Below, piece after piece: positions 3,270-38,532 of a DNA stretch of 47,897 nucleotides (position 1 is its first letter; every line of letters begins with the position of its first letter). The stretch covers positions 1 through 47,897 of the forward strand of contig CAZUED010000001.1 in NCBI GenBank assembly GCA_964619545.1. The letters are read 5' to 3'. Source of the DNA: an uncultured Muribaculaceae bacterium (GTDB taxonomy: Bacteria; Pseudomonadota; Alphaproteobacteria; Rs-D84). A program made the position numbers and the translations under genes. Under the pieces are notes generated by a model. It was not told where the DNA came from and did no database searches. It saw only the letters and a list, made by a program, of their open reading frames with translations.

Positions 3270-4490
3270 TTATTCATAACGCAATGCATCGATTGGATTC
3301 AGCTTTGCTGCTTTACGTGCAGGCATAACTCCAGACGCTATACCAACCACGACCGCCACCCCGATGGAAAGAAATACTGACGCAATGCTAAGCGGAACTG
3401 GCATATTCATAATGCCTGGCAGTAATGTCTGGGATAAAATCACACCCAGAAAAAATCCTATCATACTGCCCATAAAGGAAATTACTATCGCTTCGGACAA
3501 GAACTGAATCGTAATATGGCTTTCGCGTGCGCCAATTGCTTTGCGAATTCCAATCTCCCGAGTCCGTTCCGCCACGCTGACCAACATCATATTCATAATA
3601 CCAATAGATCCAACCAACAATGATACGCTGGCTATCGACATTAACAGCATTTTAAGAAACCCTGTAACAGTGTTCATAGTCTCCATAATTTGCTTCATAT
3701 CCGTAATCTGGAAATCATCGCTATTGGCATCTTTTAATTTGTGCCTTTCGCGCAGCAATTGCGTAATTTGTTCGACCGCAATTGCATTATCTGCAGATGC
3801 ATTCAGTTTAACAACTACTTGCGGAACAGAATCTGGAAATTTAGAGCCTATAACTCTTTTCTGCAATGTAGTTATTGGCATAAAAATCATATCGTCGCTG
3901 TTAGTTATGCCCGCACCACCTTTTTCCTTGGTAACACCAATTACTATCAAAGGCACGCCATTCATGCGAATCACCTGTCCCACGGGATCTGGCCCCAAAT
4001 CTAACTCTTTGGCAACGGTTGGTCCAACCACAACATAAGTACTGGCATTACGAACAGCGGACCAATCAAAAAATACCCCTTGATCCATTTCTATATTCTG
4101 AATGTTTTGATAAGTTGGATATGCCCCAATCGCACTGGTATTCCAATTTTTATTTCCAAAAACAATTGTTCCACCAGACATTCTGGTGGGGGTCGTATAT
4201 TCTACATCTGGCAATTGTGCCAATGCCTCGGTATCAGAAATAGTTAAAGTATTCGACCCTGATGCCGTACGAACACCACCGGATTGAGAAGCCCCCGCAC
4301 GAATCATAATTGTATTGGTTCCAAGTGATGCAAATTGACCAGTAATTTGATTTTGCACAGCATCACCAACTGACATCATAATAACCACGGCCATAACACC
4401 AATAATTATGCCCAGAATAGTCAAAAAGCTGCGGATTTTATTTCCGACAATACTCAACCAGCTTTCTTTAAGAATGTCATTAAATGTCAT
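3270..4490 (-). CDS. MacB-type (FtsX-like) ABC transporter permease
   Basis: 406 aa. N-terminal TM IRSFLTILGIIIGVMAVVIMMSVG, a large periplasmic domain, then three C-terminal TMs with the REIGIRKAIGA motif typical of the MacB/LolC/FtsX family. Confidence 0.9.
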   Translation of the reverse strand: MTFNDILKESWLSIVGNKIRSFLTILGIIIGVMAVVIMMSVGDAVQNQITGQFASLGTNTIMIRAGASQSGGVRTASGSNTLTISDTEALAQLPDVEYTTPTRMSGGTIVFGNKNWNTSAIGAYPTYQNIQNIEMDQGVFFDWSAVRNASTYVVVGPTVAKELDLGPDPVGQVIRMNGVPLIVIGVTKEKGGAGITNSDDMIFMPITTLQKRVIGSKFPDSVPQVVVKLNASADNAIAVEQITQLLRERHKLKDANSDDFQITDMKQIMETMNTVTGFLKMLLMSIASVSLLVGSIGIMNMMLVSVAERTREIGIRKAIGARESHITIQFLSEAIVISFMGSMIGFFLGVILSQTLLPGIMNMPVPLSIASVFLSIGVAVVVGIASGVMPARKAAKLNPIDALRYE

Positions 4491-5205
4491 CTTCTCTCTC
4501 TTGCATAAATCTTAAAAAACCAGTTGTATCCTCTCTGCCAAAATCATCCAGCATGTAAGATTTTTCCTGTATTATAGATCGTGATTTATAAAATTTGTTT
4601 TTTGTCTTTAATTGTTGTTCAACTTCTGCCAATAAATCTTGGGCTTGTTTTTTTGTCAGCCTCATCAAACCAACGTTTATTCTAAATTTTTCTTTTAACT
4701 CTCTTCTAGGCTCAAACGATTCATTAAACACATTATCGTTCGGGTAATTTTCTATCCAAAATTTTATATTTTCTGGCGGATAGCCATAAATCGCCCCGCG
4801 AATAAAATGAACTTTATCAACTAATCTCGGGGTCTTTATATATTTAAGGTCTGGATTTTGATTTTTGATTTGTTCGGTTAGATTATTGATTGTTTCAATC
4901 ATATCTTTTTTTATCTGTTCCAGCTCATGACCCAAAGGCTCGGTAATTTCAATTTTTTCACCAGAAATTTTTTCCATTTTTGAAATACAATAATCTGGAT
5001 AGGAAAACATTAACATTTTATTAGATTCTTGCTCTAACGCTTCTTTTGCAATGGGTAATTTATAATTATGAAAAAACTTTGGAACCTTATATCCAGCCGC
5101 AACCAATGCATTATCTAGATCTAACGCCGACGACGACCAAAAAGATGACAGCCCCATAGATTCATAAAATATTTTTAATAATTGCTGCAACGAATTGATT
5201 TTCAT
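4480..5205 (-). CDS. Hypothetical cytoplasmic protein embedded in the efflux operon (no recognisable family)
   Basis: 241-aa ORF. Its ATG shares one nt with the TAA of the upstream ATPase gene (TAATG, 5203-5207). Its last 11 nt overlap the permease start (ATG at 4490). No signal peptide or TM; K/E-rich; visibly lower GC than the flanks. Confidence 0.6.
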   Translation of the reverse strand: MKINSLQQLLKIFYESMGLSSFWSSSALDLDNALVAAGYKVPKFFHNYKLPIAKEALEQESNKMLMFSYPDYCISKMEKISGEKIEITEPLGHELEQIKKDMIETINNLTEQIKNQNPDLKYIKTPRLVDKVHFIRGAIYGYPPENIKFWIENYPNDNVFNESFEPRRELKEKFRINVGLMRLTKKQAQDLLAEVEQQLKTKNKFYKSRSIIQEKSYMLDDFGREDTTGFLRFMQEREDDI

Positions 5206-5924
5206 TACAAATTCCTTTCGCTTTTTGGGACTGGGCCGTCATGAGTAATTTTGCCATCACGAATATGTATCAATCTGTTTGTATGACATGCTATATCAAA
5301 TTCGTGAGTAATCATCACGATAGTTATACCCAATTCTTTATTCAATTTCTTGAACATTTCCAAAATTTCAAATCCCATTTTGCTGTCCAAGTTTCCAGTT
5401 GGTTCATCCGCCAGTATCAACTTTGGTTGTCCGACAAGTGCGCGCGCTATCGCAACTCGCTGACGCATACCACCAGAAAGCTGTGGGGGAAGATAATTTT
5501 CGAACTTTTCCAAACCAACCGATTTCAGCATTTTTCGTGCCATTACCACACGATCATCCGGAGATATACCGCGATACATAAGCGGCATTATAACATTATC
5601 CAAAACACTGCGTTTAGCCAGAAGATTAAAGTTCTGAAATACAAAACCAATATACTCGTTACGCGCTATGGCTAACTCGTCCGCGGTCATGTGCGTTACA
5701 TCATTGCCATAAAGTTTATATATTCCACTTGTTGGTGTATCCAGCGCACCAATTATATTCATACAAGTAGATTTGCCACTGCCAGATGGTCCCATGATTG
5801 ATACCAACTCGCCCGCGCGCACATCAAAACTAATGTTAAATAAAACCTGTTGAGAGCCGCCACCTTCCAAACTGAATGTCTTGTTTATTTTCTCCAGCGA
5901 AATTACTAGTGGCTCTTTAGTCAT
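5205..5924 (-). CDS. ABC transporter ATP-binding protein (MacB/LolD-type NBD)
   Basis: 239 aa. Walker A GPSGSGKST, signature LSGGMRQRVAIARAL, Walker B LILADEPTGNLD, H-loop ITHE. Confidence 0.95.
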   Translation of the reverse strand: MTKEPLVISLEKINKTFSLEGGGSQQVLFNISFDVRAGELVSIMGPSGSGKSTCMNIIGALDTPTSGIYKLYGNDVTHMTADELAIARNEYIGFVFQNFNLLAKRSVLDNVIMPLMYRGISPDDRVVMARKMLKSVGLEKFENYLPPQLSGGMRQRVAIARALVGQPKLILADEPTGNLDSKMGFEILEMFKKLNKELGITIVMITHEFDIACHTNRLIHIRDGKITHDGPVPKSERNL

Positions 5925-5934
5925 TATTTATGCC

Positions 5935-7167
5935 TTACATTCCTGGACCGCCAGGGCCACCACGACTGCCGTGATTATTGCCGCCCATCATACCGCCTGT
6001 CGCAGTAGATTTTTGTCCCAGCTTTCCAGTTATAATTTTATCTCCTTTGACGATTTCATCAGAAATAATTTCTGTCTCGGTCGCAGTTACCAAACCCTTC
6101 TTATACTCTATAATTTGTGGTTTCTTTGTCTTTTCACGAATAATCGCCAGATACTGGGTTGGCTTTTTATCTGCAGCAGATTCCACTATTCCATCAAAAT
6201 TGCGCAATACAAATGCCGCATTAGGCACTTTCCATACATCTTTTCTTTCATCTACCATGATAGTTACAAATGCCGTCATCCCAGGCATAAGACGCAAATC
6301 AGAATTATCAACATCAATAACAACGGTGTAAACCACAACATTGCTTGTCGTCGTTGGGGATAATCTTATTTGACGCACCGCGCCGTCAAAGGTCTGGGTT
6401 GGATATGCATCAACGGTAAAGGTAACTTTTTGTTTTTCCTTTATCACGCCAATGTCAGCCTCGGACACGCTGGTTTCAATCTGCATCTTGGACAAGTCCT
6501 CAGCGATTTCGAATAAATCTGGGGCTTGGAAAGATGCGGCTATTGTTTGGCCTTTATCGACTTTGCGCGAAATTATTGTTCCATCAACTGGTGATACAAT
6601 CTTGGTATATCCCAGATTTGTTTTTGCTCTTTCATATTGAGATTTTGCACGTAAAACGGATTGCTGGGATGTTTTATATTTTGTTTCGGCTTGCTCTAGT
6701 TCTGCACGCGCAATATACCCTTCGGCAAAAAGGGATTTATTTCTTTCGTATTCTGAATTATCAAATTTCAGTTGGGCCTGGGCCGAATCAAGAGCAGCCT
6801 TGGATTCATCGGCCGTTGCCTGTAAAACGCTGGGATCTATTGTTAATAAAACATCACCTTTTTTAACCTTGTCATTATAGTCAACCATAATGTTTTCAAT
6901 GTTTCCACTGACCTGACTGCCAACTTTAATTGTATTTACTGGTTTTATTTCACCGGTTGCGGTAACGACCTGCTTCAAGTTTCCACGTGTAATTTCAATA
7001 GTGGCAAACTGGCTTTCAGTCGATTTAGTTTCACCAAAAATCAATGGTAAAATTATTACCACACACAAAGCGCTTACTATCCACCATTTGTGCTTTACCA
7101 TATAATTAAAAATCCTTTTCCAACGACTGGTTGATGCTATTTCATCCATGTTCTGTGCCATATTCAT
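5935..7167 (-). CDS. Efflux periplasmic adaptor, HlyD/MacA family
   Basis: 410 aa. N-terminal TM, lipoyl-like VSGNIENIMVDYNDKVKKGDVLLTIDP, coiled-coil hairpin, beta-barrel region (TKIVSPVDGTIISRKVDKGQ). Unusual Gly-rich C-terminal tail GGMMGGNNHGSRGGPGGPGM. Confidence 0.9.
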   Translation of the reverse strand: MNMAQNMDEIASTSRWKRIFNYMVKHKWWIVSALCVVIILPLIFGETKSTESQFATIEITRGNLKQVVTATGEIKPVNTIKVGSQVSGNIENIMVDYNDKVKKGDVLLTIDPSVLQATADESKAALDSAQAQLKFDNSEYERNKSLFAEGYIARAELEQAETKYKTSQQSVLRAKSQYERAKTNLGYTKIVSPVDGTIISRKVDKGQTIAASFQAPDLFEIAEDLSKMQIETSVSEADIGVIKEKQKVTFTVDAYPTQTFDGAVRQIRLSPTTTSNVVVYTVVIDVDNSDLRLMPGMTAFVTIMVDERKDVWKVPNAAFVLRNFDGIVESAADKKPTQYLAIIREKTKKPQIIEYKKGLVTATETEIISDEIVKGDKIITGKLGQKSTATGGMMGGNNHGSRGGPGGPGM

Positions 7168-8540
7168 TTAATTTCTCCATACATATTTTCGGGGTTTGGC
7201 GCGGACGCGGTATCATCATCCAAATTTTCTTTTAACTCCCCGGACGCCAGCGCCAGTGCAGCCCGCTGGACATAAAGGTCATATCTGGCAGAAATGTTTT
7301 GCATCTTTGCGCTAGCCAACTCTGCTTGTTGTGTTTGCCAATCCAGCATTGTGGCGCGACCAACTTTATACATCCCGGCCGTTACGCGTTCACTTTCTGT
7401 TGCAGATTTCAGCAAAGAATCTGTCTGTTCCAAAACCTTTATAGCTGTTTTATAATTTTGATATGCAGTCCAAATGTCTTGGGCGACCAGATCTTCTTTG
7501 GCACGTTGTTGTTCTTTGGCGCGCTCGTAATTTGCCTGGCTGGCCCGCAAATTATAAACATTTGCAAAGCCTGCGAAAATCGGCATTGAAGCACGAATAC
7601 CTATGCTGCCACCAACCTTGTCATTTGGATTTCCGCTAACCGAATCATAGGTGTTCTGAAAATTATATGACATCTGACCGGTTGCAGAAATTGATGGTAA
7701 ATTTTTCAAAAATTCTGAATTGCGTCGATACCATGCTGCGTTGGTAGATTCTCCCGCGGAAAGCAAATCGGGACGTTGCTTTTTGGCTTTCTCTATCAGC
7801 TGGGTAATAGTTTCAGATTCTGCGGTACTGCCGAAATTTGATGGCATATCAGTAATTTTCAGATTTTGGTTTTGTGGAAAAGATAACAAGTATAAAATTT
7901 TACCCTTGGTAATTTCACGATTGCCCTGGGCGCGTTTTAATTCCAGCTCTCGCGCGGCCAGACTTGTTTCGGCCTTTAAAACATCTGCCTTGGCCACGGC
8001 ACCAGCCTTGAATTTCTTGTCCGCCGTATCTTTGGCGCCCTTTGCAACCTTGACTAAATCTTCTGCCGCAACGACGCCCGCGTCCGCGCTTAGCATTCCA
8101 TAGTAAGCTGCAACAACATCATAAACATAGTTCTGGACTGCAGTGCTGTAATCAAAGCCAGTTGCACGCCATACTGCTGCAAGTTGATTTAAATCAGAAA
8201 GTCGCTTACCAAAGTCAAAAATCAGCCAACTGGCCGATAAAGATGCGCCCGATTGTATGTCTCCCCATTCCTTGTTCCTGTATGATTTTGATCCGGAAAA
8301 ACCCGCATCTATGGATGGCAAATATGGCGCATACCCCGCATTTTTTCCAAAACGCGCAGATTCAGCAGATAAATACGCGGCTGCGGTCTGCGGATTTCGA
8401 CACAAACCCAACTCTACGACTTGCTGCAAAGTTAAAGTTTTATCTGGGACCGAACTGCGCGAAGCGCAGTTTTCATCCGCCGCCTGTGCCGAACAGGTCA
8501 GAAAAAACAGACTGGTTATTGGTAAAATCATTCTTTTCAT
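7164..8540 (-). CDS. TolC-family outer membrane efflux protein
   Basis: ORF 7164..8570. I prefer the ATG at 8540, which gives the signal peptide MKRMILPITSLFFLTCSAQA. Two repeated alpha/beta TolC-like halves. ATGA overlap with the adaptor gene at 7164-7167. Confidence 0.88.
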   Translation of the reverse strand: MKRMILPITSLFFLTCSAQAADENCASRSSVPDKTLTLQQVVELGLCRNPQTAAAYLSAESARFGKNAGYAPYLPSIDAGFSGSKSYRNKEWGDIQSGASLSASWLIFDFGKRLSDLNQLAAVWRATGFDYSTAVQNYVYDVVAAYYGMLSADAGVVAAEDLVKVAKGAKDTADKKFKAGAVAKADVLKAETSLAARELELKRAQGNREITKGKILYLLSFPQNQNLKITDMPSNFGSTAESETITQLIEKAKKQRPDLLSAGESTNAAWYRRNSEFLKNLPSISATGQMSYNFQNTYDSVSGNPNDKVGGSIGIRASMPIFAGFANVYNLRASQANYERAKEQQRAKEDLVAQDIWTAYQNYKTAIKVLEQTDSLLKSATESERVTAGMYKVGRATMLDWQTQQAELASAKMQNISARYDLYVQRAALALASGELKENLDDDTASAPNPENMYGEIK

Positions 8541-8619
8541 AAGACAAATTATATCATAATTTTCTTGCAATTACACGATTCGGTGTATAAAGTTAACTTG
8601 TTCTTAAATAAATTTTTAG

Positions 8620-35350: not shown

Positions 35351-35482
35351 ATGAAATTTTTAAGCTCCTTAAAAGGATGGAAAAAACGCGGCAATATAAA
35401 ACAAATTCGCCGTGGTAAACAGATTATATTGATTGATCCTGATAAACCAAAATTTAAAGCTAAACAAGGCTTTAAAAGATAA
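35351..35482 (+). CDS. rpmJ: 50S ribosomal protein L36
   Basis: 43-aa ORF below the ORF-track cutoff. MKFLSSLKGWKKRGNIKQIRRGKQIILIDPDKPKFKAKQGFKR matches the non-zinc L36 form (MKVxSSLKSxKxR...RRGKxxVIxKxNPRFKARQG). RBS AAAGGTGA. Confidence 0.88.
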   Translation: MKFLSSLKGWKKRGNIKQIRRGKQIILIDPDKPKFKAKQGFKR

Positions 35483-35507
35483 AAATATAATTTATTCATA
35501 TTTTAAT

Positions 35508-35535
35508 AATTCCTGTTTTTACAGGAATTTTTTTT
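35508..35535 (+). terminator. Rho-independent terminator after rpmJ
   Basis: AATTCCTG-TTTTTA-CAGGAATT (35508-35529) followed by T6. Confidence 0.8.
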
Positions 35536-35600
35536 AACATTTACATTTCAAACAAAAATATAATTTATATTTATTATTTCTTTTGTTAGTCATGTTTATA

Positions 35601-35795
35601 TTGTTGAAAATAATTTTTGTTTATTTATAAACAGTTTTTCAACAAAAAAATGTTAGATTTTAAGGTAAAAATTTAATTTTGTTGAAAATGTAGAAAAATA
35701 ATAAACTTATAAAAAATATGGTATTTTTAAGTAATTTTAACAAAATATAAATAAATTATTTTATGCTTGTTGAAAAGTATAAAATTTTGTTAAAA
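35601..35795. repeat. Repeated TTGTTGAAAA motif in the AT-rich region upstream of virB3
   Basis: Exact copies at 35601-35610, 35679-35688 and 35767-35776. An inverted copy (TTTTCAACAA) at 35636-35645. A degenerate copy TTGTTAAAA at 35787-35795. Copies 1 and 2 form a 45-bp imperfect palindrome. Confidence 0.7.
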
Positions 35796-35812
35796 TCAAG
35801 ATAGAGAGTAGA

Positions 35813-36112
35813 ATGAAACAGCAAGTCTTAAAATCCTTGGCTAATCCGGCGCGCATATTTTATGTGCCGTATAACCTTGCAATACTTAATTTTGTAGTTC
35901 AATTTATTGTTTTTATGGTTATTTTTATAATTGGAATAACAACTTCGCCCAGTTATGAAATGCCTATAGATCCATTATATTTTTTACTATCGGTTGTAAT
36001 TGTTCATTTTATTCTAGCATTCTATTCAAAAAAAGAACCGCAATTAATGCAAATTATTTTAGCAAAATTAAGGTTGTTTGGAAAATTTATTCCAAAAATT
36101 CTAAGAGTGTAA
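35813..36112 (+). CDS. virB3: Type IV secretion system protein VirB3
   Basis: 99 aa. N-terminal LKSLANPARIFYVPYNLAILNF followed by two TM segments. Immediately upstream of virB4. Confidence 0.8.
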   Translation: MKQQVLKSLANPARIFYVPYNLAILNFVVQFIVFMVIFIIGITTSPSYEMPIDPLYFLLSVVIVHFILAFYSKKEPQLMQIILAKLRLFGKFIPKILRV

Positions 36113-36117
36113 AAAAA

Positions 36118-38532
36118 GTGCAAGATTTTTTTAATTTTTTTGTATCAGATATATCATCACCAACAACATTTGTGATGTTTGGTGCTATTATACTTTTTGT
36201 AATAATTATGTATTTTTATTCAAATGTATTATCAAAAACAATTTTGCCAAAATTTGGATATAGAAAATACTCTGATTATCTGCCTTTTTCATCAATTTAT
36301 TCTGATAATACAACTATTGGTTTGTTAGATGGGTCTATTGTCAGGGCTTATGAAATTGCTGGAATTCAGACATCTATGCATGATGATGAAACCAAGAAGA
36401 AGTTTTTAGAGCTACGAGCTCAATTATTAAATCAAATTAAAGATCCAACAATAACAATTAGATTTTTTATGATTCGTGATGCTGTCCAGCAAAACACTAA
36501 TTATGAATTTGATCAACCTATTTTACAAAAAATTAGCGATAACTGGAACGCCCAAGGATTAAAAATTTTCAAAAATTCATATTATGCTGTAATCAGTATA
36601 GCTGGCGGTGCACATGATAAAATGGCGCAAGTTTCAACTTATTTTGAATCAATTATGGCCGCATACAAACCGGTTTTATTAAAACATAATTCGACCAAGA
36701 ATTTTGCATCTCTTTATGCGCGTATTTTATCGCCATTATCAAAACCTGGTGTTTTTAGAACTGATTCTAATATGTCAAATTTAATAACAACCGATGAGAT
36801 AAGTTTTGGTTTTGACGGAATTATTACAGCTTCACATGGGTCTGATAAAAAGTATATGGCTATGGCGTCGTTTAAAACATCACCAGATTTTATGGATGAA
36901 GAATTTTTTGATTCAATTGGAACAATCCAGACAGAATTAATTTGTATGAGTGCTTTTAACGTTTTGGGATCATCAAAAACAGAAACAATTATTCGTCAAA
37001 AAATGGCCAGCAGCGATTCTAATAAAAACGAAAGTGGTGATGTTGCCACTCAGCAGATTGGTGAAGCATTATACTCGATGGATGAAAATGTAACAGGAAA
37101 TCAAAGCCTGATGGATTATTATCCTCTTTTTGTTCTTTCTGGTGATACAAAAGAAGAGTTGTCAGAACATATAAACGAGTTTAATAAAATTTGTGCAGGA
37201 TTTGGAATTTCACCTGTGGTGGAAAGTTTTGCTGCAAAAGTTTCTTGGTTTGCAATGTTACCCGGATTTGATGTTTTCCCACGTTCATTCAAGTTGCTTT
37301 CTATGACTGCCGCAACAAGTTTTCCATTATCCAGCTCGCCAGTTGGGGTTGAAAATTCTGATTGGGGCCCAGGTCCACTGGTTATATTTCCAACCAGCAG
37401 TGGAACACCATATCAGTTCCAATTTCATGTATCTGAATCTGCAGCGGCGGTTGCGCATACATTAACAATTGGACCAACAGGTGGTGGAAAAACAACATTA
37501 TTTTCTTTCTTGATTTCAATGTCACTGCGACATCAAAAATTAAAAGCATTCTTTTTTGATAGAAATCGCGGGGCAGAAATCTTTACATTGGCAACAGGTG
37601 GAAAATATCTGACCTTTAATGCAAAGTCTAAAGATAAAGTTGCGGCAGGTTTCGAGACCCGACTAAATCCATTCAAGTTGGATGACACAGACGCTAATCG
37701 CGCTTTTCTGCGACGTTGGCTGATGATGATCTCTGGGCAAAACGATCCACAATCTTTGGATGAAATAGCGCGCGCAGTATCGGTAAATTTTGATTATTTA
37801 GATGAAAGTCAAAGAAAGTTGAAAAATTTGTGGGTATCTAATTTTGCATCAGATGGCAAAATGCGTCCGGCGTTAAAACAATGGGTTGATGATTTGCAAT
37901 ATGGCAGTATCTTTAACGAAAATACCGATACATTGGATTTATTCTCACGTCTTACTACATTTGATTTTACTGATGTTTTGGCGGATGAAACTTTGGCGCC
38001 AGCGGTAATTTCTTATATATTACACAGAATAAATACAGCAACCGTGTCTGGTGGAAATCCTGCATTAATTATGATTGATGAAACCGCGCCCATGTTGGAA
38101 AATAAAATGTTCCGCGATAACTTTGTTGTTGGTTTGCAAGAAGGAAGAAAAAACAGACAAGCGTACATGGCGGCATTCCAGCGCGCAAATGTTTTGGATA
38201 AATTGGGCATCGGTGACGTTGTCCGTGGTCAGGCACAAACGATCTTGTTCTTCCGCAATCCTGGTGCTGACACGGCGGATTACGAGCACTGGAAGCTGAA
38301 CCCATTAGAAATGGCATTTATCCAAGGGCGCGCTTATCCTAATCTGAAACGTGCAGTTTTGTTGTCGCGTCCTGTTACTGGCGAGTCCGTAATTTTGAAC
38401 ACAGAATTAGGAGGCCTGGGCAGCTTGCTTCGATTATTCGAGTCAGGTCGTTCATCGGTATTATTAGCAGAGGAATTGTATAAACAATACGGGAATCAGT
38501 TTGTTGAAGAATACTTACGCAAGACCGCATAA
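36118..38532 (+). CDS. virB4: Type IV secretion system ATPase VirB4
   Basis: 804 aa. GTG at 36118 (alternative ATG at 36175). ...DYLPFSSIY...GLLDGSIVRAYEIAGI..., Walker A GPTGGGKTT, Walker B region ALIMIDETAPML. Confidence 0.92.
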   Translation: MQDFFNFFVSDISSPTTFVMFGAIILFVIIMYFYSNVLSKTILPKFGYRKYSDYLPFSSIYSDNTTIGLLDGSIVRAYEIAGIQTSMHDDETKKKFLELRAQLLNQIKDPTITIRFFMIRDAVQQNTNYEFDQPILQKISDNWNAQGLKIFKNSYYAVISIAGGAHDKMAQVSTYFESIMAAYKPVLLKHNSTKNFASLYARILSPLSKPGVFRTDSNMSNLITTDEISFGFDGIITASHGSDKKYMAMASFKTSPDFMDEEFFDSIGTIQTELICMSAFNVLGSSKTETIIRQKMASSDSNKNESGDVATQQIGEALYSMDENVTGNQSLMDYYPLFVLSGDTKEELSEHINEFNKICAGFGISPVVESFAAKVSWFAMLPGFDVFPRSFKLLSMTAATSFPLSSSPVGVENSDWGPGPLVIFPTSSGTPYQFQFHVSESAAAVAHTLTIGPTGGGKTTLFSFLISMSLRHQKLKAFFFDRNRGAEIFTLATGGKYLTFNAKSKDKVAAGFETRLNPFKLDDTDANRAFLRRWLMMISGQNDPQSLDEIARAVSVNFDYLDESQRKLKNLWVSNFASDGKMRPALKQWVDDLQYGSIFNENTDTLDLFSRLTTFDFTDVLADETLAPAVISYILHRINTATVSGGNPALIMIDETAPMLENKMFRDNFVVGLQEGRKNRQAYMAAFQRANVLDKLGIGDVVRGQAQTILFFRNPGADTADYEHWKLNPLEMAFIQGRAYPNLKRAVLLSRPVTGESVILNTELGGLGSLLRLFESGRSSVLLAEELYKQYGNQFVEEYLRKTA

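What the first reader, a model, noticed from the sequence alone, without database searches (positions are those of the whole stretch)
4480..5205. Unrecognisable cytoplasmic ORF translationally coupled between the ATPase and permease genes of a MacAB-TolC-type operon
Seen: on the minus strand the order is tolC-like, adaptor, ABC ATPase, a 241-aa ORF, then the FtsX/MacB-type permease. The ORF's ATG shares a base with the ATPase TAA (TAATG at 5203-5207), and its last 11 nt overlap the permease ATG (4490), so it is built into the operon rather than sitting next to it. It has no signal peptide or TM, is K/E/N-rich, is visibly more AT-rich than both flanks, and carries no motif I can assign (for example ...VHFIRGAIYGYPPENIKFWIENYP...). 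Established: MacB-type tripartite pumps are described as adaptor + NBD/permease (fused or split) + TolC, with no fifth cytoplasmic subunit in the canonical description. Inference: it may be a new accessory, regulatory or substrate-handling partner of a type VII ABC pump, or a captured foreign gene.
Basis: partly seen in the sequence, partly recalled or inferred. Interest (0 to 1): 0.72.

Follow-up and report, generated by a model that had tools for sequence, protein, structure and literature searches.

The report
Orphan protein embedded in ABC pump operons
A fast-evolving 241-residue cytoplasmic protein of unknown fold sits, translationally coupled, between the ATPase and permease genes of a MacB-type efflux operon, and relatives sit in the same position in lipoprotein-release (Lol) operons of uncultured gut Alphaproteobacteria, which suggests an undescribed cytoplasmic add-on to this transporter class, although a sister lineage runs the same pump without it.

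Summary
ORF 4480-5205(-) encodes 241 aa, shares TAATG with the ABC ATPase stop, overlaps the MacB_PCD/FtsX permease start by 11 nt, and has 32% GC against 41-42% in the flanks.

It matches no Pfam, NCBIfam, PHROG or PADLOC family. Two high-confidence AlphaFold models (pLDDT about 94) have no PDB or BFVD neighbour.

The family is small, about 50 representatives among 1.84 billion proteins. Every named member is a hypothetical protein from an Alphaproteobacteria or Rickettsiales MAG.

In 14 of 18 distinct contexts it lies between the NBD and permease genes of a type VII ABC system:
- MacB-type operons: ABC-X-permease.
- LolCE/LolD operons: permease-X-ABC.

It is under purifying selection (dN/dS about 0.18-0.29) but changes 4-9 times faster than its flanks. 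One clear allele replacement was found, and GC3 stays low in nearly all loci.

A sister lineage has the same operon with 19 nt in place of X. Unrelated genes also insert into this operon.

Best reading (about 0.4): a dispensable, lineage-specific cytoplasmic modulator of the NBD/permease complex. Main rival: a hitch-hiking cassette. Binding to the pump is untested.

The parts
4480..5205 (-). Gene X: 241-aa soluble all-helical protein of a new, unnamed family
   Evidence: ORF. No family hits. Homologues. dN/dS 0.175-0.29. AF2 pLDDT 93.7. No fold neighbour.
5205..5924 (-). ABC ATPase (NBD) of a split MacB-type transporter
   Evidence: PF00005, E 9e-32. Best NCBIfam matches are the MacB NBD, DarD and LolD, all below equivalog cut-offs.
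3270..4490 (-). MacB-type permease (MacB_PCD + FtsX)
   Evidence: PF12704 E 4e-47 and PF02687 E 2e-22. Aligns to MacB positions 253-646.
5935..7167 (-). Periplasmic adaptor (HlyD/MFP)
   Evidence: PF16576 and PF13437.
7164..8570 (-). Outer-membrane factor (TolC-like OEP)
   Evidence: PF02321, E 4e-56, two repeats.
5203..5207 (-). TAATG stop/start overlap between the ATPase and X
   Evidence: Read directly. The same overlap type occurs in most MacB-type loci, and as TAATG between X and lolD in Lol-type loci; one MacB-type locus, L020, has an 11-nt spacer before X instead.
5212..5219 (-). Shine-Dalgarno-like GAAAGGAA for X, inside the ATPase codons Glu-Arg(AGG)-Asn
   Evidence: All X-bearing MacB-type loci use AGG for this Arg. 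The X-less sister operon L028 uses CGT.
4480..4490 (-). 11-nt overlap of the X stop with the permease start
   Evidence: Conserved in L004, L011, L006, L018, L012 and L027. L001 and L020 have short spacers instead.
4483..4530 (-). C-terminal tail of X (residues 226-241, DTTGFLRFMQEREDDI), after a lower-confidence linker
   Evidence: The motif D-P-T-G-[FY]-L-R-F-M is kept in MacB-type members even at about 30% body identity. The last 60 nt of X are as conserved as the permease gene. pLDDT is 66-80 here against >94 in the body. The tail is absent in Lol-type and L020-type members.
4765..4812 (-). Most conserved core motif of the family, VHFIRGAIYGYPPENI (residues 132-147)
   Evidence: G137, G141, P144 and I147 are nearly invariant across 44 sequences.

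Best explanation
X is the founding member seen here of a small, lineage-restricted family of soluble helical proteins. In uncultured gut Alphaproteobacteria the family has become wired into type VII (MacB/Lol-type) ABC operons.

Proposed mechanism (inferred, not shown). X is made by translational coupling in step with the ATPase and permease. It docks on the cytoplasmic face of the transporter, meaning the NBD dimer and/or the permease's N-terminal amphipathic helix and coupling helices. There it modulates the ATP-driven mechanotransmission cycle as a brake, gate or assembly factor. In MacB-type operons the conserved C-terminal peptide D-P-T-G-F-L-R-F-M would be the docking element, and the fast-evolving helical body would be the variable input side.

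X is an accessory, not a core subunit, because a sister lineage runs the orthologous pump without it.
For: Shown:
(1) Position is conserved across deep divergence. ABC-X-permease occurs in 12 distinct MacB-type loci, with X identity to the window falling to about 25% in the alignment (30% by phmmer).
(2) The family also occupies the same between-genes position in a different, paralogous system with the opposite gene order: lolCE-X-lolD in L007, L022 and L023. The lolCE permease scores 422.7 bits against the TIGR02212 cut-off of 362.
(3) Overlapping stop/start junctions are kept in both operon types. An SD-forming AGG codon is kept in the upstream ATPase only where X is present.
(4) Purifying selection acts on X: dN/dS 0.175 at dS 0.19, and 0.2-0.29 in older pairs.
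(5) The MacB-type and Lol-type members have the same confident fold: pLDDT 93.7 and 94.2, with the same helix order.
(6) The tail is conserved at the rate of the permease while the body diverges.
(7) There is no TM segment or signal peptide.

Established knowledge: type VII ABC transporters do their work in the periplasm and receive only ATP-driven conformational input from the cytoplasm (PMC5985334). A cytoplasmic partner can therefore only act on the NBD/coupling side.
Against: The orthologous operon of a sister lineage lacks X entirely. Its permease is 82% identical to the X-bearing L001, and only 19 nt separate its ATPase and permease genes.

The ATPase C-terminus and permease N-terminus are the same with and without X, so there is no visible co-adaptation.

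The operon tolerates unrelated insertions in relatives: an ldh/mdh-like gene, thymidylate kinase and an ORF6N gene. Position alone is therefore weaker evidence here than usual.

Four family members are not next to ABC genes.

Family-wide invariant residues (S25, S26, Y48, L50, P51, N117, G137, G141, P144) look structural, so no functional site is identified.
Confidence: 0.4

Rival explanations
1. Hitch-hiking cassette. X is a foreign, mobilome-derived gene whose function has nothing to do with the transporter. It persists because insertion between translationally coupled genes of useful or essential operons gives it expression and makes clean deletion costly. Alleles are swapped by recombination in the conserved flanks.
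For: GC3 is lower than both flanks in 9 of 10 loci, including a 54%-GC host (0.52 against 0.75). Nucleotide identity drops sharply exactly at the X boundaries. At one syntenic locus (L018) X is 28-33% identical while the permease is 86-88% identical. Between the window and L027, X has dS 0.19 while the flanks have dS 0.6-0.87, which suggests recent exchange of X. A sister lineage lacks X. Unrelated genes are inserted into the same operon in relatives. Standalone and tandem copies occur in other contexts, one beside an ART-PolyVal gene.
Against: No homologue was found in 50,697 phage records, 72,556 plasmids or IMG/VR. No mobility gene, repeat or nuclease motif accompanies X. Two independent insertions into the same relative position of two paralogous type VII ABC operons are hard to explain by chance. 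The X tree otherwise follows the host tree, which indicates mostly vertical descent. The tail is conserved at flank-like rates.
Confidence: 0.3
2. Conflict-driven guard, immunity or decoy. X binds the cytoplasmic side of envelope ABC machines (Lol, MacB) to protect them from, or sense, a rapidly evolving antagonist such as a phage protein or an interbacterial toxin that targets type VII NBDs. That would make its body hypervariable.
For: dN is 4-9 times that of the flanks with dN/dS still below 1. There is allelic replacement and presence/absence polymorphism. The body is variable and the tail constant. X associates with the essential Lol machine as well as with an efflux pump.
Against: No PADLOC hit. 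No partner toxin or effector gene is nearby. No site-specific positive selection was shown. This is entirely inferential and is a special case of the binding hypothesis.
Confidence: 0.15
3. Free-standing homing-endonuclease-like selfish gene that targets a conserved sequence of type VII ABC genes.
For: It is an AT-rich ORF wedged between conserved genes with overlapping junctions, as seen for phage seg/mob genes (my own knowledge). It is present in two paralogous operons.
Against: No GIY-YIG, HNH, LAGLIDADG or PD-(D/E)XK match. The fold is all-helical. No invariant acidic or histidine residues. The flank orientation differs between the two operon types: 3' of the ATPase gene in one and 5' of it in the other.
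Confidence: 0.03
4. Non-functional or mis-called ORF.
For: None beyond the lack of annotation; every named homologue is 'hypothetical protein'.
Against: dN/dS 0.175. The reading frame is conserved in more than 20 loci. AF2 models are confident. The SD and coupling signals are conserved.
Confidence: 0.02

Closest known systems
MacAB-TolC tripartite efflux pump (type VII ABC, mechanotransmission)
   Same: The window operon has all four canonical parts: OEP, HlyD-type adaptor, ABC NBD, and a permease with a MacB periplasmic core domain plus FtsX.
   Different: NBD and permease are separate genes, and a 241-aa soluble protein is encoded exactly where the NBD-TMD linker lies in fused MacB. No cytoplasmic component of this kind appears in the MacB family review (PMC5985334) or in my literature searches.
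LolCDE / LolDF lipoprotein-release transporter
   Same: Distant X-family members sit between a bona fide lolCE-family permease and a LolD-like ATPase.
   Different: Described Lol operons have no gene between the permease and lolD (my knowledge; nothing found). Only one permease gene is adjacent, which fits a LolF-like homodimer arrangement (my knowledge).
YknW of YknWXYZ and AS-48E (accessory proteins of Gram-positive MacB-type pumps)
   Same: They are extra, poorly understood proteins encoded with MacB-type transporters (PMC5985334).
   Different: Both are multi-pass membrane proteins. X is soluble and unrelated in sequence.
Cytoplasmic regulators acting on ABC NBDs in other ABC classes (EIIA-Glc on MalK; C-terminal regulatory domains of MetN and ModC)
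   Same: This is the proposed mode of action: a cytoplasmic element that modulates NBD closure. The comparison rests on my knowledge and is by analogy only.
   Different: These belong to importers and to different folds. No homology to X was detected.
FtsZ C-terminal peptide (D-I-P-x-F-L-R), which docks on FtsA, ZipA and other partners
   Same: The X tail D-P-T-G-F-L-R-F-M lies at the extreme C-terminus behind a flexible linker and forms a short helix. The resemblance is recalled from memory.
   Different: It is a 7-residue similarity with a register shift and was not tested statistically or structurally. Treat it as a lead only.

Membership tests
MacB-type (type VII) ABC tripartite pump (the operon) | Permease with four TM helices and a large periplasmic MacB core domain (PF12704) plus an FtsX C-terminal domain (PF02687) | tested here: met
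   PF12704 E 4.3e-47 and PF02687 E 1.6e-22.
MacB-type (type VII) ABC tripartite pump (the operon) | Cognate ABC ATPase, HlyD-family adaptor and OEP/TolC encoded together | tested here: met
   PF00005, PF16576/PF13437 and PF02321 in consecutive overlapping or adjacent genes.
MacB-type (type VII) ABC tripartite pump (the operon) | Equivalog-level identity to E. coli MacB (NF007826) | tested here: not met
   229 and 239 bits against a cut-off of 966. This is partly because the protein is split. It is a MacB-family pump, not a MacB orthologue, and its substrate is unknown.
LolCDE/LolDF (the operon holding distant X relatives) | Permease reaching the lolCE equivalog cut-off (TIGR02212) | tested here: met
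   422.7 bits against a cut-off of 362.45 for L007:5649-6899.
LolCDE/LolDF (the operon holding distant X relatives) | ATPase reaching the LolD equivalog cut-off (TIGR02211) | tested here: not met
   245.1 bits against a cut-off of 307.75. LolD is the best hit but falls below the cut-off.
Any curated protein family (Pfam-A, NCBIfam, PHROGs, PADLOC) for X | Score above the family threshold | tested here: not met
   Best Pfam E-value is 0.024, at 15 bits against a cut-off of 27.5. None of 44 family members shares a Pfam hit.
Any solved or predicted viral fold for X | Foldseek E <= 1e-3 or TM >= 0.5 | tested here: not met
   Best PDB E-values are 2.3 and 0.56, with TM <= 0.28, for two models. Best BFVD E-value is 0.94. 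The PDB sequence-profile search gave E >= 0.038, which is noise.
Obligatory subunit of the pump | Present wherever the orthologous pump is present | tested here: not met
   L028-L037 have OEP-MFP-ABC-(19 nt)-permease without X, in the same gpsA/TPR/gidB/parAB neighbourhood as the X-bearing L001.
Physical partner of the NBD/permease | Direct binding or a confident modelled interface | not testable with these tools
No multimer modelling or coordinates were available.
Free-standing homing endonuclease | GIY-YIG, HNH, LAGLIDADG or PD-(D/E)XK nuclease domain | tested here: not met
   No such Pfam hit in any of 44 members. The predicted fold is all-helical.
Phage- or plasmid-borne gene | Homologues on phage, plasmid or viral contigs | tested here: not met
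   No match in INPHARED phages, PLSDB plasmids or IMG/VR for three different members. Absence from these collections is not proof.

The most novel reading that the evidence does not exclude
The X family is the first dedicated cytoplasmic regulatory component of type VII ABC mechanotransmission machines. It would act on both an efflux pump and the essential Lol lipoprotein extractor, and its hypervariable body would reflect an arms race or a changing cytoplasmic input. Under this reading, envelope machines thought to be driven only by ATP availability are gated from the cytoplasm in at least one bacterial lineage.
Probability: 0.3. Interest if true: 0.8.

Novelty: new variant of a known kind. 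Interest (0 to 1): 0.6.

Why it matters
Type VII ABC systems (MacAB-TolC, LolCDE, FtsEX, YbbAP) are described as having periplasmic partners and no dedicated cytoplasmic regulator.

A protein family that recurs exactly between the NBD and permease genes in two of these systems would be a natural handle on how ATP hydrolysis is controlled in mechanotransmission. It would also point to a possible natural modulator of the essential Lol pathway, which is an antibiotic target.

If X instead proves to be a hitch-hiker, it is a clean example of an orphan gene exploiting translational coupling inside essential operons. It would also show allele replacement framed by conserved flanks in host-associated Alphaproteobacteria.

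Either way it defines a new protein family and fold, with two high-confidence models.

Tried and rejected
- **Family searches.** Pfam, NCBIfam, PADLOC and PHROGs on X, and Pfam on all 44 aligned members, gave nothing.
- **PDB sequence profile.** Only coiled-coil-like noise, E >= 0.038.
- **Fold searches.** Foldseek of two models against PDB and one against BFVD gave no neighbour.
- **Genome-collection scan.** The 44-sequence alignment was too divergent to run. The close alignment found only one MAG, split over two contigs, plus a spurious Treponema hit. That hit is an NAD-dependent epimerase that happens to contain DKVHFIRG, and I rejected it.
- **Phage, plasmid and IMG/VR searches.** Searches with the window protein or its close-homologue alignment A3, and with P0046 and P0014, were negative.
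- **Promoter and terminator scan of the operon.** Counts equal those in shuffled sequence, so there is no evidence for or against internal signals.
- **Second family copy or second ABC NBD in the window.** None found.
- **Literature.** No paper describes a cytoplasmic accessory protein of MacB or Lol operons.
- **Homing-endonuclease idea.** Considered and rejected: no nuclease motif, and the flank orientation is inconsistent between operon types.
- **Substrate chaperone idea.** Considered and rejected, because these transporters take substrate from the periplasmic side.
Full report
**1. The observation**

On the minus strand the window carries these genes in order:

| Gene | Coordinates |
|---|---|
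| OEP/TolC-like | 7164-8570 |
| HlyD-type adaptor | 5935-7167 |
| ABC ATPase | 5205-5924 |
| 241-aa ORF ('X') | 4480-5205 |
| MacB_PCD+FtsX permease | 3270-4490 |

Pfam confirms the four pump parts. Reading the sequence gives TAA 5207-5205 and ATG 5205-3, that is TAATG. The X stop at 4482-4480 lies 11 nt inside the permease gene, whose ATG is at 4490. GC over X is 0.31-0.33 against 0.41-0.44 in the flanks.

**2. X is a real, selected, folded protein of no known family**

- Pfam, NCBIfam, PADLOC and PHROGs give no significant hit.
- A scan of 1.84 billion representative proteins finds only 50 relatives at E <= 1e-3, and 22 at E <= 1e-10. The word-indexed search of 5.8 billion proteins finds 6.
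- No member hits a shared Pfam family.
- All members that carry a name are 'hypothetical protein' from MAGs labelled Alphaproteobacteria, Rickettsiales or Proteobacteria. The close homologues of the window's permease carry the same taxon labels.
- AlphaFold2 with a 44-sequence alignment gives pLDDT 93.7 and pTM 0.84. The model is an all-helical protein of ten helices, with a lower-confidence linker and a short terminal helix.
- A distant Lol-linked member, P0037, gives pLDDT 94.2 and pTM 0.88 with the same order of helices and no tail.
- Foldseek finds nothing in PDB (best E 2.3 and 0.56, TM <= 0.28) or in BFVD (best E 0.94). A PDB sequence-profile search gives only noise.
- Against a 93%-identical orthologue (L027), dN/dS is 0.175 at dS 0.19. 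Older pairs give 0.2-0.29.

**3. The linkage is conserved, and it recurs in a second type VII system**

- In every MacB-type locus recovered the order is ATPase-X-permease: L001-L006, L008/L009, L011-L013, L015, L016, L018, L020/L021 and L027. Identity of X to the window falls to 30% by phmmer (P0031), or 25% in the alignment (L020), and the wider neighbourhoods differ (argS/rpmG, parAB/gidB, yidD/accBC).
- Two further members, P0055 and P0037 (23-29% identity), lie between a permease and a LolD-like ATPase in the opposite order, permease-X-ATPase. That permease passes the lolCE equivalog threshold (TIGR02212, 422.7 bits against 362.45). There is an 8-nt overlap upstream and TAATG downstream.
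- MacB-type and Lol operons are ancient paralogues, so these must be separate insertions of one family into the same relative position.
- Counting distinct contexts, 14 of 18 lie between the NBD and permease genes of a type VII ABC system. The four exceptions are:
  - L017, where the contig starts inside X and X is followed by convergent kinase and thyA genes.
  - L019, with an unknown gene upstream.
  - L024/L025, standalone near an ART-PolyVal gene.
  - L026, with two tandem copies.
- A further detail supports selected translation of X. The SD-like GAAAGGAA upstream of X is formed by the ATPase codons Glu-Arg(AGG)-Asn in all X-bearing MacB-type loci. The X-less operon encodes the same Arg as CGT.

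**4. X evolves unlike its neighbours**

Amino-acid identity to the window:

| Locus | ATPase | Permease | X |
|---|---|---|---|
| L004 | 92% | 96% | 63% |
| L011 | 83% | 89% | 56% |
| L012 | 81% | 82% | 42% |
| L001 | 76% | 64% | 40% |

- In the Lol-type pair L007/L022, LolCE is 78% and LolD 79% identical, but X is 30%.
- dN of X is 4-9 times that of the flanks.
- A 60-nt sliding profile shows the drop in identity begins and ends at the X gene borders. The exception is the last 60 nt, which encode the tail and are as conserved as the permease.
- At the syntenic locus L018, X is only 28-33% identical to the X of its nearest relatives, while the permease is 86-88% identical. The tail is almost unchanged: DPTGFLRFMQGRDDDF against DPTGFLRFMQERDDDL. 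This indicates replacement of the X body by a divergent allele.
- Conversely, between the window and L027, X has a lower dS (0.19) than the flanks (0.61-0.87). This suggests recent exchange, although the GC3 difference between the two genomes may inflate flank dS.
- GC3 of X is below both flanks in 9 of 10 loci, including a 54%-GC host (0.52 against 0.75). Only L001 is fully ameliorated.
- Otherwise the X tree follows the permease tree.

**5. X is dispensable for the pump**

Permease P0196 is 66% identical to the window's permease and 82% identical to that of the X-bearing L001. It occurs on at least 23 contigs, of which 10 were shown. All 10 read OEP-MFP-ABC-(19 nt)-permease with no X. They share the gpsA/TPR/gidB/parA/parB neighbourhood of L001. 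X has therefore been lost, or never gained, in a sister lineage. The ATPase C-terminus (…DERNL) and permease N-terminus (MTFNDI…) are the same with and without X.

The operon is also permissive to other insertions in this clade:
- An ldh/mdh-like gene between the OEP and adaptor genes (L012).
- A thymidylate kinase on the opposite strand between the ATPase and X (L014).
- An ORF6N gene between the adaptor and ATPase (L020).

**6. Interpretation**

MacB-family transporters do not carry substrate across the inner membrane. They transmit NBD closure to periplasmic domains (PMC5985334). A soluble cytoplasmic protein can therefore plausibly act only on the NBDs or on the cytoplasmic coupling elements. 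This argues against the 'substrate-handling' idea.

The recurrence of one family between the NBD and permease genes of two paralogous systems, with coupling signals maintained, is the strongest argument for a functional tie to the transporter. Purifying selection and a tail conserved at flank-like rate add to it. Against that stand the X-less sister operon, the lack of co-adaptation in the termini, the foreign-like composition, the allele replacement, the standalone members and the insertion-prone nature of the locus. Together these keep a hitch-hiking cassette as a serious rival.

I put about 0.4 on a dispensable cytoplasmic modulator or adaptor of the NBD/permease complex. Within the binding idea, a conflict-driven guard is a sub-variant at about 0.15. 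I put about 0.3 on a hitch-hiker with unrelated function, and little on a homing endonuclease or a non-gene. Which steps are shown and which inferred:
- Shown: gene anatomy, linkage, selection, fold novelty, dispensability.
- Inferred: binding, the role of the tail, any effect on ATPase.

**7. Comparison with what is known**

The operon is a split MacB-family tripartite pump. It is not an equivalog of E. coli MacB, and its substrate is unknown. X is not a member of any curated family or known fold. Known accessory proteins of MacB-type pumps (YknW, AS-48E) are membrane proteins. Known NBD regulators (EIIA-Glc on MalK, the MetN and ModC regulatory domains; my knowledge) belong to importers and are unrelated. 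The tail resembles the FtsZ C-terminal docking peptide (D-I-P-x-F-L-R; from memory). That is an untested lead. Four literature searches found no description of such a component.

**8. Verdict**

The finding is a new protein family and fold, forming a new variant of type VII ABC operon architecture in an uncultured alphaproteobacterial clade. Function is unproven. Interest is 0.6.

Noticed in passing
window 35480-35810: An extremely AT-rich intergenic stretch (GC down to 0.17) lies just upstream of a virB3-like ORF (35814-36112) and a CagE/TrbE/VirB4 gene (36118-38532). It contains at least three direct copies of TTGTTGAAAA and one inverted copy. It may be a regulatory region of a type IV secretion operon.
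   Followed up: partly
L008 and L009 (CAYJAG010000043.1, CAYJAG010000017.1): A MAG labelled 'uncultured Muribaculaceae' carries the same operon and argS at about 91-96% protein identity to the window. Every other named relative is labelled Alphaproteobacteria, Rickettsiales or Proteobacteria. The contigs or the MAG label are probably mis-binned or mis-assigned. The X gene is split across the two contig ends.
   Followed up: partly
L007 987-2768, L022 2095-3867, L023 882-2654 (minus strand): A protein of about 590 aa combines FtsA (PF14450) and ribulose-phosphate 3-epimerase (PF00834) hits, next to ftsQ and close to the lolCE-X-lolD operon. This is an unusual fusion, or a gene-call merger.
   Followed up: no
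L012 3119-4042; L014 638-1318 (-); L020 2680-3258; L017 336-1817 (-): Unrelated genes are inserted into or next to the same pump operon in relatives: an ldh/mdh-like gene between the OEP and adaptor genes, a thymidylate kinase between the ATPase and X on the opposite strand, an ORF6N gene between the adaptor and ATPase, and guanylate-kinase-like plus thyA genes after X. The locus is an insertion hot spot in this clade.
   Followed up: partly
L026 166-819 and 866-1156: Two X-family paralogues lie in tandem on a short contig, not next to ABC genes. The second scores E 1.7e-13 against the family profile.
   Followed up: no
L010 7917-9053: A Treponema NAD-dependent epimerase contains the exact peptide DKVHFIRG and produced a false 'relative' in the genome scan. 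This is a caution for pattern-based locus searches.
   Followed up: yes
window 35352-35483: A small ORF (MKFLSSLKGWKKRGNIKQIRRGKQIILIDPDKPKFKAKQGFKR) resembles the zinc-free type of ribosomal protein L36. The resemblance is from memory and was not tested.
   Followed up: no
L007 4300-5631 and 8299-9721; L022 and L023 equivalents: The lolCE-X-lolD operon is flanked by conserved genes with no Pfam or NCBIfam match. Upstream is a lipoprotein-like protein of 443-451 aa (72% identical between loci). Downstream are two proteins, the first only 35% identical between loci, so it is another fast-evolving neighbour.
   Followed up: no
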